A stretch of DNA of 64,000 nt from Vicinamibacteria bacterium (GTDB taxonomy: Bacteria > Acidobacteriota > Vicinamibacteria > Marinacidobacterales > Marinacidobacteraceae): assembly GCA_965199715.1 (NCBI GenBank), contig OZ241322.1, positions 192,001 to 256,000 of the forward strand, given 5' to 3'. This document shows, piece after piece, positions 6,083-10,249 of this stretch. Numbering within the stretch: the first letter of the stretch is position 1; every line of letters starts with the position of its first letter. The notes under the pieces are model-generated. The model worked only from the letters and a program-made list of their open reading frames with translations, had not been told where the DNA came from and ran no database searches. A program made the translations under genes and the position numbers.

Positions 6083-7258
6083 TCAGGCGGCCATCTTCTG
6101 GGCGTTGTCCAGCACGACCGCCATCTTCTCCGCGCCGCGCTGCATCTCGTCCATCGTGCCGATGGAGATGCGGCAGCGGGTCCACAGCGGCGGGAACGGA
6201 CGTCCGACCCGCACGCCTTCCACGGCGCACGCGGCCTGGAACTCCTCGATGGGCATTCCGGTGTCCGCGAAGATGAAGTTGGTCTGCGACTCGGTCACGT
6301 CCAGTCCGCGGTCGGTGAAGAACTTCGTGATGAAGTCCCGCGCCTCGGCGTTCCGCGCCTTCTCGTTCACGAGGTAGCTCGGGTCCGCCTTGTCTCGCTC
6401 GAGCGCGGCGTTGGCGGCGACCATCGAGATGGTGCTGACCGAGTTGCCCATGTGGAACTCGCCGAGCTCCGCGATGGCGTCCTCGTGCGCGATCGCGTAG
6501 CCGATGCGGAGACCGGCCATGCCGTACGCCTTGGAGAACGTCCGGGCGACGATGAGCCGCGGATCCTGGAGCGCGGCGGGAATCATCGTCTCGTGGCCGG
6601 GAGTGGTCACGTAGTCGATGTACGCCTCGTCCACGAGGATGCGCAGGTCCGGGTTCACCATGAACGCCCGGTCGATGAACTCCCGCCCCTCGGCCGGATC
6701 CACGAGCGTCGCGACCGGGTTGTTCGGGTTGCAGTAGAAGAGCATCCCGCTGCCCTTGACCGCGTGGAGCGTCTGGTCGAGGTCCATCCGGAAGTCGGAG
6801 GTGAGCGGCACCGCCTTGGTCCGGTAGCCCATGAGCGCCGCGTAGCCGAAGCACTCCTCGTAGGTGGGCAGGGAACCGACCAACGCCTTCTCGCGGCTCG
6901 CGTACTGGTGCGTCGCGTCCACGAGAATCTGCGTGGAGCCGGCGCCGACGAGCACGTTCTGCGGCTTGACGCCCCACTTCTCGGCGATGGCCTCCTGGAG
7001 CGGCCCGGAGTAGGCGAACGGGTAGCGGCCCATGAGCGTCCCCTCGGGGCCGATCAGCGAGTCCACCGCGTCCATGACCACGTCTCCGGGGCCGAGCGAG
7101 TTCTCGTTGTTGGCGAGGTTGATCGCCTCGTCGGCGGCCATCCCCTGCGCGGCGGCGAACGCGACCTGCTCGCGCAGCCGCGAGCGGACCAGCGTGGCCG
7201 CGTAGAAACCCGCGGCGCCGGACGCGGCGTGGTTCAGAAAATTGCGACGAGAGAGCAT
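6083..7258 (-). CDS. Tat-exported PLP-dependent aminotransferase class I/II (HisC-like)
   Basis: MLSRRNFL twin-arginine motif; NENSLG, CNPNNP, VDEAY and RTFSKAYGMAGLRIGY (PLP lysine). Confidence 0.9.
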   Translation of the reverse strand: MLSRRNFLNHAASGAAGFYAATLVRSRLREQVAFAAAQGMAADEAINLANNENSLGPGDVVMDAVDSLIGPEGTLMGRYPFAYSGPLQEAIAEKWGVKPQNVLVGAGSTQILVDATHQYASREKALVGSLPTYEECFGYAALMGYRTKAVPLTSDFRMDLDQTLHAVKGSGMLFYCNPNNPVATLVDPAEGREFIDRAFMVNPDLRILVDEAYIDYVTTPGHETMIPAALQDPRLIVARTFSKAYGMAGLRIGYAIAHEDAIAELGEFHMGNSVSTISMVAANAALERDKADPSYLVNEKARNAEARDFITKFFTDRGLDVTESQTNFIFADTGMPIEEFQAACAVEGVRVGRPFPPLWTRCRISIGTMDEMQRGAEKMAVVLDNAQKMAA

Positions 7259-7299
7259 GTTCGGTTTCCTTCGGTTCGAGCGAGCGGTCTGGTACCGGC

Positions 7300-8484
7300 C
7301 TACTGCTGGTTGTCGGTGGTGTTGAGCCCGAGCACGTCCGCGAACACGGCGGTGGCGCGCTGCATCTCCTCCATCGTGCCGATGGAGATGCGGGCGTGGG
7401 TGTCCTCGTAGGGCGGGAAGTCCCGTCCCACCCGGATGCCCTGCTTGGCGCAGGCCTCGCGGAATTCGCGAGCGGACATGCCGAGGTTCACGAAGACGAA
7501 GTTGGTCTGGCTCGGCACCGGATCGAGGCCGTTGCTCGAGAAGAAGTCCAGCGTGTACTGCCGGGCCGCCTCGTTGCGCTGGACCTCGGTCATGATGTAG
7601 TCCGGGTCCTCGAGCGAGCCGTAGGCGGCCGCGATCGAGAGCACCGAAGTCCCGAAGGTCAACTGGAGCGGCGCGATCCGGGCGATCGTGTCCTTCTGGC
7701 CGAACGCGTAGCCGAGCCGGAGTCCGGCCATGCCGTACGCCTTCGAGAAGGTGCGCGCCACGAACACGTCGCGGTAGCGCATCGAGAGCTCGGCGCCGGT
7801 GTCGTAGGCCGGGTCGGTCACGTACTCGAAGTACGCCTCGTCCAGCAGGATCGCGGTGTACGGCGAGTTCTTCTTCACGTAGGTGACGAAGTCGGTGATG
7901 TCGGAGGCCGAGTGGATCGTGCCGGTCGGGTTGTTCGGGTTGCACACGAACACCATGCCCGCGCCCATCGAGGCGCCCGCCATCTTGTCGAGGTCGAGCG
8001 CGAGACCGCCGGTGAGCGGAACCTCGGCGACCGGGTGCCCGAGGTAGCGGGCGGTGCGGGTCGGGCTCTCGTAGGAGCACTCCGCGGTCACGAGCGGGCG
8101 ACCCTCGCCGGTGAAGACGCGCACGGCGCTCCGCAGGATCTCGCCCGAGCCCGCCGCCAGCACCACGTTGCGGCCGTCGCCGCCGTGTTTCTGGCCGAGC
8201 TTGTCGCGCAGGTCCTGGTCGCTGATCCCGGCGTTCATCGGGTAGCGCATGATCGAGCCGTACTCGCCGCGCAGCGCCGCGACCGCCGCCGGGCCGGGGC
8301 CGAGCGGGTTCTCGTTGCTGCTGATGCGAACCTCGTCCGCTTCCGGAGCGGGGACGAAGACCGGGGCGCCGCGGAAGCCGTTCTCGGCCTCCCAGGCCTC
8401 GCGGCCCCGGGCGCTGATCGCGTGGAGGGTCGCGGCGCTCGGAGCGCCGGCCAGATTCAGAAATCCGCGACGGGTCGCATTCAT
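7300..8484 (-). CDS. Second Tat-exported PLP-dependent aminotransferase class I/II (HisC-like)
   Basis: MNATRRGFL motif; SSNENPLG, CNPNNPTG, LDEAY and RTFSKAYGMAGLRLGY. Confidence 0.9.
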   Translation of the reverse strand: MNATRRGFLNLAGAPSAATLHAISARGREAWEAENGFRGAPVFVPAPEADEVRISSNENPLGPGPAAVAALRGEYGSIMRYPMNAGISDQDLRDKLGQKHGGDGRNVVLAAGSGEILRSAVRVFTGEGRPLVTAECSYESPTRTARYLGHPVAEVPLTGGLALDLDKMAGASMGAGMVFVCNPNNPTGTIHSASDITDFVTYVKKNSPYTAILLDEAYFEYVTDPAYDTGAELSMRYRDVFVARTFSKAYGMAGLRLGYAFGQKDTIARIAPLQLTFGTSVLSIAAAYGSLEDPDYIMTEVQRNEAARQYTLDFFSSNGLDPVPSQTNFVFVNLGMSAREFREACAKQGIRVGRDFPPYEDTHARISIGTMEEMQRATAVFADVLGLNTTDNQQ

Positions 8485-8569
8485 GGGGAGTCTCCCTTTT
8501 CGCTGGAGTCGGGGTTCATCGCTCCCCGGAAAGTACCGAACCCGCAGGCCTGGGGCAAGATCAGTCCGG

Positions 8570-9316
8570 TCAGTGGACCATGAGGTCGGCGACGAGCGCG
8601 GTCGTCCCCCACTGCATGGTCATCTGGCCGTTCATGCCGTCGGCCATGAGGGAAATCGTGAACATCTCCTCGGAGCTGTCGCGGGTCTCGACCTTCATCG
8701 GCATGCTGAGGACGTCGTGGCCGGGGTCATGGGCGTTGCCCATCTGGCCGGTTTCCTTGTTGACCACGAGGTCCCAGCCGGCGTCCGTCTTCTTCGCGAA
8801 GAGCGTGTAGGCCCCGGCGGGCAGCATCTCCGAGCCGAACATGAGCGAACCCTCGCTCGTGATCGTGGTCGCGCCCTCCGAGCCGAGGCGCCAGATCATC
8901 CCCGGCGTCGCCATGCCGAGCATGTCGCGGCCGTTGAGGCTCGGGCGGCCGTAGTCCACCGACACGGCCTTGCCGCTGAAGCTGGCCTTCGCCTCGCCCC
9001 TCGGGTTGTGGGCGAGCGCGAGGCCCGCGCCGAGCGAAAGCGCGAGCGCGACGCCCATCACGACGTTCGCCGCCCGGGTGAGCCGCGACTTGGCGCGGGC
9101 CGCGGCGTTTCTATGCAGGACGCCGCGCCCGGCCATGCGGTCGAGCAGCGCGGCCGTGACCGGCAGCGCGGCGCGGGTCGCGTCCGCGTCGCCCGCCGCG
9201 ATGGCCTGGCGGAGGCCCTTCGCCTGGGTGCGCAGCCGGCTGCGGTGGCTGCGGTTGCGGAGGCGACGTTCATGATTCTGACGAACGCGTTTCTTCGCGG
9301 ATTTGGAATGAGCCAT
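8570..9316 (-). CDS. rpsT: 30S ribosomal protein bS20 fused to a signal-peptide-like segment and a DUF2911-like domain
   Basis: Residues 1-84 are S20 (MAHSKSAKKRVRQ...RNRSHRSRLRT...LDRMAGRGVLHRNAAARAKSRL). There is no stop. Residues 85-102 are hydrophobic, and 103-248 contain VDYGRPSL-GR, WRLGS--AT and LPAGAYTLF, resembling DUF2911. Confidence 0.9.
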   Translation of the reverse strand: MAHSKSAKKRVRQNHERRLRNRSHRSRLRTQAKGLRQAIAAGDADATRAALPVTAALLDRMAGRGVLHRNAAARAKSRLTRAANVVMGVALALSLGAGLALAHNPRGEAKASFSGKAVSVDYGRPSLNGRDMLGMATPGMIWRLGSEGATTITSEGSLMFGSEMLPAGAYTLFAKKTDAGWDLVVNKETGQMGNAHDPGHDVLSMPMKVETRDSSEEMFTISLMADGMNGQMTMQWGTTALVADLMVH

Positions 9317-9322
9317 GCGGCG

Positions 9323-9328
9323 AGTCTA
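9323..9328 (-). promoter_or_regulatory. Putative -10 box (TAGACT) 6 nt upstream of the rpsT ATG, overlapping the stop codon of the upstream gene
   Basis: Minus strand gaTAGACTcgccgcATG; no Shine-Dalgarno. Confidence 0.55.
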
Positions 9329-10249
9329 TCGCGCCGTGCGCTGCGAAGGACCGCCGCCGGCGAGCAGCCGGATCGGGCTGCTGAAGGTGGATACGGTGAC
9401 TTCGGGGCCGCTGTCGCCGTGACGGCCGGCGAGCGTCAGCGGAGTGCTCGGCGTGGGCTCCATGGGAAAGTCCGAGACGATCTCGCCGCGGAACGTGGAC
9501 GCGTCCAGCAGGAAGCCGGGGACCGCCCCGAATCCGAGATCCACCTCGCCCGAGTGGGTGCGGACCTCGTACCAGCCGTCCTCGCGCAAGGCGCCGGCGA
9601 GCCGGATGTTCGCGGTGAGGGTCTCGGCGGTGCAGCGCCGGGCGGCGACGTCCTCGAGGCGCATCTCGCCGCTCACCGTCTCGGCGACCACGTGGTCGGC
9701 GACGAGGCCGTTCACCTCGAGCGGCCCGCTGATGCTCCGCAGCAGGAAGCGCCCGCCCGGCGAGGCCACGTCCTCGAGCGAGATCGCCGCGGTGAACGAA
9801 CGGACCGTGAGCGAAAGCCCCTCGGGCAGCCAGAGCTCGAGATCGACGAGCACCGGCGGGATGCGCCGGGGCGCGCGCACCTCGGTGAGCGGGATCTCGC
9901 GGGTGCGCCCGTCCGCGCCCCGAGGCGGCTGCGGACCGATCCGCACGTGGCCCTCGGTCTGGTGGAGGTCGAGATTCACCCGGCGGAAATGCCGCTCGCT
10001 CTCCTCGGGCGGGACCCCCGGCTGCAGGCGCTTGACCGCGACGAACCGAAGCAGGCGATCCTCCGTCGCGGCGCTGCGCACCGCGACCTGCCCGGCGAAG
10101 TTCATGACCGAAACGGCCGTGCCCGCCTCGACTTCGATGGTCCGCTCGACGCGCATCGTCTCCTGCACGGCCGCTGCTGGGGCGGCGGCGCCCAGGCACA
10201 GGGCGGCGGCCCACAGCGGGGCGCGTCTCGGGTCGGGTTTCATCTGCAT
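9326..10249 (-). CDS. Exported DUF4097 (adhesin-like beta-strand repeat) protein
   Basis: Signal-like WAAALCLGAAAPAAA; repeated xTxSGx(I/L/V)xL units (SISGPL, TVSGEM, THSGEV, TFRGEI, TFSSPI). Confidence 0.75.
   Translation of the reverse strand: MQMKPDPRRAPLWAAALCLGAAAPAAAVQETMRVERTIEVEAGTAVSVMNFAGQVAVRSAATEDRLLRFVAVKRLQPGVPPEESERHFRRVNLDLHQTEGHVRIGPQPPRGADGRTREIPLTEVRAPRRIPPVLVDLELWLPEGLSLTVRSFTAAISLEDVASPGGRFLLRSISGPLEVNGLVADHVVAETVSGEMRLEDVAARRCTAETLTANIRLAGALREDGWYEVRTHSGEVDLGFGAVPGFLLDASTFRGEIVSDFPMEPTPSTPLTLAGRHGDSGPEVTVSTFSSPIRLLAGGGPSQRTAR

What the first reader, a model, noticed from the sequence alone, without database searches (positions are those of the whole stretch)
8570..9316. 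Ribosomal protein bS20 fused through a signal-peptide-like linker to an exported DUF2911-like domain
Seen in sequence: one 248-codon ORF. Residues 1-84 (9316-9065) are a complete, conserved S20. It runs without a stop into VVMGVALALSLGAGLALA (9064-9011), an 18-aa hydrophobic segment ending in an A-x-A signal peptidase I motif. From H103 the sequence resembles a mature DUF2911 domain. The only basic n-region for this signal is the Arg/Lys-rich S20 C-terminus (KSRLTR). The gene has its own -10 box 6 nt upstream. Established: bS20 is normally a free ~87-aa 16S rRNA-binding protein, and DUF2911 proteins are normally separate secreted proteins. Inference: this is a dual-compartment polyprotein. Cleavage at ALA/H would release DUF2911 to the periplasm and leave S20 with a membrane anchor. 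That could tether 30S subunits to the membrane, or require an RseP/SppA-type protease to free S20, loosely like eukaryotic ubiquitin-ribosomal protein fusions. It would also tie output of an envelope protein to ribosome biogenesis. I know of no described example.
Basis: partly seen in the sequence, partly recalled or inferred. Interest (0 to 1): 0.9.

Follow-up and report, generated by a model that had tools for sequence, protein, structure and literature searches.

The report
Ribosomal S20 fused to secreted protein
In one sponge-associated acidobacterium a small deletion has welded its only ribosomal protein S20 gene in frame to the neighbouring gene for a secreted protein of unknown function, a real but lineage-private accident whose consequences for the ribosome are untested.

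Summary
Window 8570-9316 (-) is one 248-codon ORF with a full bS20 domain (residues 2-84), an 18-residue hydrophobic segment ending A-L-A, and a full DUF2911 domain (105-241). It is the only S20 match in a 2.66-Mb, 2-contig genome.

It is not an assembler artefact. An identical 25.8-kb DNA contig from a second study and a 4.1-kb contig from an RNA library both cross the junction.

It is not a conserved architecture. All three same-genus genomes keep two adjacent genes, with an S20 stop, a spacer and a DUF2911 start with a basic n-region. G000 lacks 59-103 nt there. In other genera of the family the two genes lie at least 171 kb apart. No other S20+DUF2911 protein turned up in four database searches.

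Neither half shows relaxed selection.

Most likely the retained signal-peptide core still sends the DUF2911 half through Sec. Signal peptidase I would then cut at ALA|H, leaving S20 with a hydrophobic tail that an RseP-type protease may remove. That step is inferred, not shown.

This is a curiosity in one lineage. Interest is moderate.

The parts
8570..9316 (-). Single 248-codon ORF: bS20, hydrophobic linker and DUF2911, with the stop codon at 8570-8572
9065..9316 (-). bS20 domain, residues 1-84. This is the only S20 match in the genome.
   Evidence: Pfam PF01649 E 1.5e-24; TIGR00029 86.7 bits; 1 match in G000; 78-79% identical to congeners' S20
9011..9064 (-). 18-residue hydrophobic segment VVMGVALALSLGAGLALA (residues 85-102). 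It combines the last S20-tail residues with the h- and c-regions of the former DUF2911 signal peptide. The basic residues K76, R78 and R81 of S20 lie just upstream.
9050..9058 (-). Approximate deletion junction. Homology to the congeners' S20 tail runs through ...GTGATGGG (M87 = 9058-9056). Homology to their signal-peptide h-region begins right after. The junction position is uncertain by several nt.
   Evidence: MAFFT alignment of 4 congeneric loci; distance from S20 start to mature DUF2911 start is 306 nt against 365, 377 and 409 nt
9008..9016 (-). Predicted signal peptidase I site L101-A102 | H103. A100, at the -3 position, lies just outside this span at 9019-9017.
   Evidence: Aligns with A-x-A|HNPRG in 11 of 11 recovered orthologues. 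The -3/-1 rule is recalled knowledge. No signal-peptide predictor was available.
8573..9010 (-). Mature DUF2911 domain, residues 103-248 (146 aa), all-beta
   Evidence: Pfam PF11138 E 3.6e-30; AlphaFold2 mean pLDDT 95.5; no indels against 11 orthologues
9323..9328 (-). TAGACT, a -10-like hexamer 6 nt before the ATG that overlaps the upstream gene's TAG stop (9326-9328). The spacer to rpsT is only 9 nt.
   Evidence: spacer 9 nt against 34 (G002) and 91 (G003) computed, and 46 (G001) counted by eye from the printout; no full promoter found

Best explanation
Shown: this is a genuine, lineage-private in-frame fusion of two formerly separate, adjacent genes. In the ancestor of this genus (sponge-associated Acidobacteriota, class Vicinamibacteria) the DUF2911 gene came to lie directly downstream of rpsT. 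In the G000 lineage a deletion of roughly 60-100 nt then removed the S20 tail and stop codon, the spacer with its ribosome-binding site, and the DUF2911 start codon and basic n-region. The two reading frames were left joined. I put the odds that this origin is correct at about 0.9.

Inferred, with odds of about 0.45: the retained h- and c-regions still act as a Sec targeting sequence. The Arg/Lys-rich end of S20 would serve as the positive-inside n-region, so the S20 half stays in the cytoplasm and the DUF2911 half crosses the membrane. Signal peptidase I would cut at ALA|H103 and release normal mature DUF2911. S20 would be left with an 18-residue hydrophobic C-terminal tail. That tail would be clipped by the RseP-type (M50) or SppA-type protease, as for remnant signal peptides and for RseA and FecR, or it would leave the membrane unaided. 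S20 would then join 30S subunits.

I read the fusion as a tolerated accident in a compact symbiont genome, not an adaptation.
For: Origin:
- 3 of 3 same-genus genomes (G001-G003) have rpsT with its own stop, a spacer (AGGAG upstream of the start in 2 of 3), and a DUF2911 gene starting MKNRL, MKRRP or VKHRS.
- The distance from the S20 start to the mature DUF2911 start is 306 nt in G000 against 365, 377 and 409 nt.
- In 11 genomes of other genera in the family where both genes lie on one contig, they are at least 171 kb apart (positions).

Reality of the sequence:
- Word share is 1.00 in runs of two studies.
- X3 record 1 (25,852 nt, depth 147) covers 8300-9900 with 0 differences and 0 gaps.
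- The RNA-library contig X6 record 7 (4,133 nt) covers 8300-9720 with 0 differences.
- X8 record 13 (a third study) covers 9024-9177 with 0 differences.

Both halves still look constrained:
- The S20 half averages 25.0 differences to 8 outgroups against 23.9-27.9 for congeners. Its NG86 dN/dS is 0.13-0.17 against 0.10-0.26.
- The DUF2911 half averages 38.4 differences against 38.0-46.1, with dN/dS 0.11-0.18 against 0.14-0.22.

Mechanism:
- The cleavage motif is conserved in 11 of 11 orthologues and the hydropathy is in range.
- The genome encodes signal peptidase I (158.8 bits), an M50/RseP-like protease (217.3 bits) and an S49/SppA-like protease (141.7 bits).
- RseP removes remnant signal peptides after leader-peptidase cleavage. 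It also frees roughly 85-residue cytoplasmic domains such as FecR 1-85 (PMC8144685, passages read).
- S20 shortage is costly in Salmonella (PMC7069363, passages). A lineage seen in several studies therefore probably still makes usable S20.
- S20 tails in congeners vary from 89 to 101 aa, so the C-terminus tolerates extensions.
Against: - No experiment or read-level data show export, cleavage or release.
- The selection tests cannot detect a recent event. All sampled copies are identical, so the age of the fusion is unknown.
- Sending every S20 molecule through the Sec machinery would force equimolar DUF2911 output and load the translocon.
- An 84-residue, highly basic, RNA-binding n-region could hinder targeting.
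- A hydrophobic tail on S20 could block 30S assembly.
- The contigs laid cannot reveal minority unfused alleles.
- X3 may itself be the source of the window, as the tool warns.
- X8 record 13 has about 29 nt on the DUF2911 side, 2 short of the tool's 31-nt bridging rule.
- The RNA-library contig may derive from contaminating DNA.
Confidence: 0.6

Rival explanations
1. The fusion is real but damaging. One half is crippled: S20 is trapped in the membrane or degraded, or DUF2911 is poorly exported. The lesion became fixed by drift in a host-restricted symbiont with a small population. The lineage lives with little or no S20, or without this DUF2911 protein.
For: The fusion is private to one lineage. 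G000 has the smallest genome of the 25 family members listed: 2.66 Mb against 2.9-4.9 Mb, with the other sizes possibly rounded. Its rpsT upstream spacer is also shortened, at 9 nt against 34-91 nt, which suggests a bias towards deletions. A DUF2911 paralogue exists elsewhere in G000 (C1:929161-929487). From memory, with no paper seen here, rpsT deletions are viable in E. coli and Salmonella.
Against: No excess of amino-acid change appears on the G000 branch in either half, although a recent event would leave none. S20 shortage is strongly deleterious in Salmonella (PMC7069363 passages). The identical genotype is found in runs of at least three studies.
Confidence: 0.25
2. The 248-aa protein is not exported. 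It stays whole in the cytoplasm, and S20 enters the 30S subunit with the DUF2911 domain hanging from its C-terminus.
For: Variable C-terminal tails in congeners suggest the S20 C-terminus is solvent-exposed. An internal hydrophobic segment placed after a long basic domain may escape SRP and SecA.
Against: The 18-residue segment has signal-peptide-like hydropathy and a conserved cleavage motif. A normally periplasmic all-beta domain and an exposed hydrophobic helix on every ribosome would probably aggregate. That last point is inference.
Confidence: 0.08
3. This is the first reader's reading: an evolved, adaptive dual-compartment polyprotein that tethers 30S subunits to the membrane or ties envelope-protein output to ribosome biogenesis.
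For: The topology is compatible with it, the gene is the only rpsT, and both halves are intact.
Against: The architecture was found in one lineage only. 3 of 3 congeners are unfused. Among 273 pooled homologues, 0 other than the query carry both domains. No fused form appeared in 29 genome loci or 16 metagenome loci. The sequence shows no adaptation at the junction. It is simply what a deletion leaves behind.
Confidence: 0.04
4. The fused form is an assembly or consensus artefact, or a minority allele, and most cells carry two separate genes.
For: All laid runs are contigs, which drop rare variants. The best DNA holders may be the window's own source.
Against: Separately assembled contigs from runs of two studies (P1 and P2) cross the junction, each with 0 differences and 0 gaps, and a third study (P3) supports it with a near-bridging piece. 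No alternative joint or loose end was reported at the junction for the high-depth contig (tables 4, 5, 8). The loose ends at 9025 and 9060 belong to short 36-nt GC-rich matches of other contigs that carry 3 mismatches.
Confidence: 0.05

Closest known systems
Stand-alone bacterial ribosomal protein bS20 (rpsT; PF01649, TIGR00029)
   Same: The profile is matched over its full length, well above both curated cut-offs. The N-terminus MAHSKSAKKR is identical to that of relatives, and identity to congeners is 78-79%.
   Different: There is no stop codon after the domain, and 162 further residues follow. Relatives are 85-101 aa.
Secreted DUF2911 proteins (PF11138), orthologues in the same family of Vicinamibacteria
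   Same: The 146-aa mature domain has no indels and is 75-80% identical to congeners. The A-x-A|HNPRG boundary is the same. A DUF2911 protein was listed in a metasecretome table (PMC4666044, one passage).
   Different: It has no start codon or basic n-region of its own. S20 occupies that place.
RseA and FecR type II membrane proteins processed by site-1 cleavage and then RseP (S2P), and remnant signal peptides removed by RseP
   Same: The predicted layout is the same: a cytoplasmic N-domain of about 85 residues, one hydrophobic segment and a periplasmic domain. A periplasmic-side cut followed by intramembrane cleavage would free the cytoplasmic part (PMC8144685 passages). An M50 protease gene is present.
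   Different: There is no homology. Processing is purely inferred here. The first cut would be made by signal peptidase I rather than a regulated site-1 protease.
Eukaryotic ubiquitin-ribosomal protein fusions (recalled; no paper read here)
   Same: A ribosomal protein is made as part of a precursor that must be cut before or during assembly.
   Different: Those fusions are ancient, conserved and cytosolic, and the ribosomal protein sits at the C-terminus. This one is private to one lineage, the ribosomal protein sits at the N-terminus, and the partner is an exported domain.

Membership tests
bS20 (PF01649 / TIGR00029) | Profile match above the curated cut-off over the whole model | tested here: met
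   86.9 bits against 29.5, profile 1-83 of 83; 86.7 bits against 33
bS20 (PF01649 / TIGR00029) | Free small protein of about 85-100 aa ending with its own stop codon | tested here: not met
   The ORF runs on for 248 codons. The 11 relatives' S20 proteins recovered are 85-101 aa.
bS20 (PF01649 / TIGR00029) | Binds 16S rRNA and is incorporated into the 30S subunit | not testable with these tools
   The only indirect evidence is the absence of excess substitutions.
DUF2911 (PF11138) | Profile match above the curated cut-off | tested here: met
   105.1 bits against 27, profile 2-141 of 145
DUF2911 (PF11138), secreted orthologue group | Own N-terminal Sec signal peptide with a basic n-region, an h-region and A-x-A | tested here: not met
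   The h-region and A-L-A are present, but the start codon and n-region are missing. 11 of 11 recovered orthologues have them. 8 of the 19 related loci were not parsed by my script.
Type II signal-anchor or S2P-substrate-like topology (works like, not a member of) | Basic cytoplasmic N-domain, one hydrophobic segment of signal-peptide strength, and an extracytoplasmic C-domain | tested here: inconclusive
   Only hydropathy (2.01, in range) and charge distribution were checked. No SignalP or TMHMM-type predictor was available.
Type II signal-anchor or S2P-substrate-like topology (works like, not a member of) | The processing enzymes are present in the genome | tested here: met
   SPase I 158.8 bits, M50 217.3 bits, S49 141.7 bits. 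These enzymes are near-universal, so the support is weak.
Conserved ribosomal-protein fusion precursors (for example ubiquitin fusions) | The fusion is conserved across related taxa | tested here: not met
   0 of 3 congeners and 0 of 40 relatives are fused. No other protein with both domains was found.

The most novel reading that the evidence does not exclude
In a sponge symbiont seen in runs of several studies, every molecule of the sole ribosomal protein S20 is synthesised as the 'signal peptide' of a secreted protein. It is targeted to the Sec translocon, cut off by signal peptidase I, and freed from the membrane by an intramembrane protease or spontaneously before it enters the 30S subunit. 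That would be a natural case of ribosomal-protein biogenesis routed through the membrane, with forced 1:1 output of an envelope protein and possibly transient membrane-tethered 30S precursors.
Probability: 0.35. Interest if true: 0.7.

Novelty: new variant of a known kind. Interest (0 to 1): 0.45.

Why it matters
If the sequence is expressed as read, this organism has no way to make S20 except as the N-terminal part of a secretory precursor. That makes it a natural experiment on three questions. How much C-terminal baggage does a primary 16S-binding protein tolerate? Can a long, basic, RNA-binding domain serve as the n-region of a Sec signal? Can leader peptidase and S2P-type proteases rescue a cytoplasmic protein from such a fusion? 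It also shows how deletions in compact symbiont genomes create chimeric genes. It does not reveal a new conserved system, because it is one lineage's accident. Its value depends on simple follow-up experiments.

Tried and rejected
- **Frameshift or hidden stop.** A TGA lies in the +1 frame overlapping the M87 ATG (GTGATG). That would give a classic stop/start overlap if S20 were read in that frame. I rejected this because nucleotide and protein homology to the congeners' S20 tail continues in frame 0 through ...ATGGG.
- **Second rpsT.** None was found: 1 match among 4 candidates. The genome is 93% complete, so a copy in missing sequence cannot be excluded.
- **Other fusions.**
  - of the 120 listed homologues (306 hits, lengths 136-434 aa), only the query carries both Pfam domains.
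  - (S20 part, longer proteins only): 5 hits. The 4 others look like frame errors or mis-called starts. The tool says that finding none is weak evidence.
  - the best 150 of 6,901 hits are all DUF2911-only. The 12 of the 13 two-stretch proteins that showed two or more DUF2911 matches are tandem DUF2911. The thirteenth, P0191, showed one DUF2911 match and only a 9.2-bit, E 0.028 S20-like stretch.
  - The query itself sits in a cluster whose representative is unfused, so fused members could hide inside other clusters.
  - Searches found no fused locus among 29 and 16 loci.
- **Promoter and terminator scan**: nothing found.
- **PDB searches for the DUF2911 half.** The sequence search gave 0 hits at E up to 1. 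The fold search gave 0 of 734 matches at E <= 0.001, with best TMq 0.29. No functional lead came from either.
- **Read evidence.** X9 (study P4) has no piece over the junction and says nothing either way. X8 falls 2 nt short of the bridging rule.
- **Literature.** Searches for S20 + fusion + signal peptide (27 papers, 15 listed, none relevant by title or abstract), for DUF2911 (1 paper) and for Marinacidobacterium (0 papers) found no description of such a fusion. Supplements were closed and were not consulted. PMC334733 (S20 C-terminal deletions) is not held.
- In one search my script mis-set the upstream-gene end for G001 and gave unreliable distances from DUF2911 to the next gene for G001 and G002. 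I do not use those numbers. The 46-nt G001 spacer was counted by eye from the printed sequence.
- **Steps not taken.** I did not model the full-length fusion and ran no complex prediction.

Full report
**What is there.** Window 8570-9316 on the minus strand is one ATG-initiated ORF of 248 codons.
- Pfam places a complete Ribosomal_S20p domain on residues 2-84 (E 1.5e-24) and a nearly complete DUF2911 domain on residues 105-241 (E 3.6e-30). Both score far above their curated cut-offs.
- NCBIfam's S20 equivalog model also passes.
- Between the domains lie residues 85-102, VVMGVALALSLGAGLALA, followed by HNPRG.
- The S20 profile finds exactly one place in the window's own genome, which is 2.66 Mb in 2 contigs and 93% complete.

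**Where it comes from.** Titles of the nearest public genomes name uncultured Acidobacteriota of class Vicinamibacteria, including 'Candidatus Marinacidobacterium'. The runs that hold the stretch are sponge metagenomes or coded host organisms.
- A six-frame search of 40 relatives showed that the three same-genus genomes G001-G003 have S20 and the DUF2911 orthologue next to each other on the same strand, as two separate matches.
- The ORF list of G003 and a four-way nucleotide alignment show the detail. Each congener's S20 has a short variable tail and its own stop. A spacer follows, with AGGAG upstream of the start in 2 of 3. Then comes a DUF2911 start codon with a basic n-region (MKNRL, MKRRP, VKHRS), an h-region, and ...ALA|HNPRG.
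- G000 lacks all of this between ...GTGATGGG and the h-region. The distance from the S20 start to the first codon of mature DUF2911 is 306 nt in G000 against 365, 377 and 409 nt.
- In the 11 genomes of other genera of the family where both genes sit on one contig, they are at least 171 kb apart (positions).
- The history therefore has two steps. A rearrangement made the genes neighbours in the genus ancestor. A private deletion of about 60-100 nt then fused them in the G000 lineage.

**Is it real sequence?** The 1.6-kb stretch around the gene is held at a word share of 1.00 by runs of two studies. Two RNA-library runs hold it at 0.97 and 0.93, and runs of two more studies at 0.65 and 0.30. Laying contigs gave these results.
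- A 25,852-nt contig at depth 147 (X3) covers 8300-9900 with no difference or gap.
- A 4,133-nt contig from a metatranscriptome library (X6) covers 8300-9720 identically.
- A low-depth third study (X8) has a 154-nt piece, 9024-9177, that runs identically from S20 into the h-region. It has about 29 nt on the short side, just under the tool's 31-nt bridging rule.
- X9 has no piece over the junction.

There are caveats. One of the first two studies is probably the window's own source. Contigs hide minority alleles. An RNA library can contain DNA. Even so, separate assemblies from runs of at least two studies reproduce the junction. I treat an assembler artefact as unlikely, at about 0.05.

**Is the architecture found elsewhere?** No, within the limits of the searches.
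- Of the 120 listed homologues of 136-434 aa, only the query carries both Pfam domains.
- Searching the S20 part against longer proteins gave 4 other hits. They look like frame errors or mis-called starts.
- The exhaustive HMMER scan of 1.84 billion representatives listed 150 best hits, all DUF2911-only. Twelve of its 13 two-stretch proteins are tandem DUF2911. The thirteenth has one DUF2911 match and no significant S20 match.
- Scans of 185,579 species genomes and of JGI metagenome contigs gave 29 and 16 related loci, none of them fused.
- One limit applies. The query itself is represented by an unfused protein in the 50% clustering, so fused members could be hidden in other clusters.
- Literature searches found no description.

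**State of the two halves.**
- Over the first 84 residues, G000's S20 differs from 8 outgroup S20s at a mean of 25.0 positions, against 23.9-27.9 for its three congeners. Pairwise NG86 dN/dS involving G000 is 0.13-0.17, against 0.10-0.26 among the others.
- For the 146-residue mature DUF2911 domain the means are 38.4 against 38.0-46.1. The dN/dS values are 0.11-0.18 against 0.14-0.22.
- Neither half shows relaxation. dS to the congeners is about 0.8-1.2, and all sampled copies are identical. The test therefore cannot tell an old, maintained fusion from a recent one.
- One private change, L82A at a site that is Leu in all 11 other sequences, sits next to the junction.

**How it most likely works (inference).** The hydrophobic segment is the h- and c-region of a bona fide cleavable Sec signal.
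- Eleven of 11 orthologues recovered by my script end A-x-A|HNPRG. Eight of the 19 related loci were not parsed.
- G000's hydropathy of 2.01 lies within their range of 1.81-2.61.
- K76, R78 and R81 of S20 supply positive charge just upstream. The positive-inside rule (recalled) therefore predicts S20 inside the cell and DUF2911 outside it.
- Signal peptidase I, an M50/RseP-like protease and an S49/SppA-like protease are all encoded.
- RseP is reported to remove remnant signal peptides once leader peptidase has cut. It also liberates cytoplasmic domains of similar size, such as FecR 1-85 and the RseA cytoplasmic domain (PMC8144685, passages).
- S20 shortage causes 30S assembly and initiation defects and a fitness cost in Salmonella (PMC7069363, passages; PMC4868123, abstract only). 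This argues that a lineage found in several studies still obtains working S20.
- The variable tails of congeners' S20, 89-101 aa in total, suggest the C-terminus can carry extra residues.

I put this export-and-cleavage route at about 0.45. A damaging, merely tolerated fusion gets about 0.25, an uncleaved cytoplasmic fusion on the ribosome about 0.08, and an adaptive, evolved polyprotein about 0.04. Internal initiation at GTG-86 or ATG-87 could add some separate DUF2911. It cannot give S20 a stop codon, and no AGGAG-like site precedes it.

**Context of genome compaction.** G000 is the smallest of the 25 family genomes listed. The spacer between the upstream gene and rpsT is 9 nt, against 34, 46 and 91 nt in congeners (the 46 was counted by eye). 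This fits a bias towards deletions, of which the fusion would be one product.

**The DUF2911 half.** AlphaFold2 with a 72-sequence alignment gives a confident all-beta model with mean pLDDT 95.5 and pTM 0.89. No PDB chain matches by sequence or by fold: 0 of 734 matches at E <= 0.001, best TMq 0.29. Its function stays unknown. One paper lists a DUF2911 protein in a metasecretome table (PMC4666044).

**Verdict.** This is therefore a lineage-specific accident rather than a new conserved system. It is still unusual, because the only rpsT of a naturally persisting bacterium has no stop codon of its own and reads into a secretory protein. The proposed processing route is plausible and easy to test.

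Noticed in passing
window 9317-9328 (-); L003-L005 upstream of rpsT: The rpsT ATG lies 9 nt after the upstream gene's TAG, and TAGACT ends 6 nt before the ATG. Congeners carry TGnTAnnnT motifs (TGCTAGAGT, TGCTACGAT, TGGTAGAGT) at about 13-70 nt before their ATG (sequences printed, distances counted by eye). If these motifs are the rpsT -10 element, G000's mRNA would be leaderless or nearly so. There is no -35 match.
   Followed up: partly
window 8573-9010 (-): The DUF2911 domain gives a very confident all-beta AlphaFold2 model (pLDDT 95.5) with no PDB neighbour by sequence or Foldseek. Y20, P23, W40, R41, G43, G66, L81 and W134 are invariant in 72 sequences.
   Followed up: partly
window 9056-9060 (-): GTGATG places a TGA in the +1 frame overlapping the M87 ATG, which looks like a stop/start overlap. 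I judged it chance, because S20 homology stays in frame 0.
   Followed up: yes
window 6083-8484 (-): Two tandem ORFs lie downstream (7300-8484, and one within 6083-8080). By my reading of their sequences they look like histidinol-phosphate-type aminotransferases. No family scan was run, so that label is recalled. Both begin with twin-arginine-like N-termini (MNATRRGFLN..., MLSRRNFLN...). Tat-type signals on such enzymes would be unusual.
   Followed up: no
P0121 (715 aa, ENA contig of 6,168 nt): An S20 that is 74% identical to the query over about 77 residues runs on into roughly 630 residues of Arg/Pro/Ala-rich sequence with no DUF2911. This is most likely a frameshift or a lost stop in a high-GC contig.
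   Followed up: partly
P0125-P0128, P0130, P0138 and others: Proteins with two tandem DUF2911 domains (272-716 aa) are common among the distant homologues.
   Followed up: no
runs X3, X8, X9 and X1/X2: All pieces of this 1.6-kb stretch that were laid from runs of four studies, labelled with different host organisms, are 100% identical. This suggests one near-clonal symbiont population across hosts.
   Followed up: no
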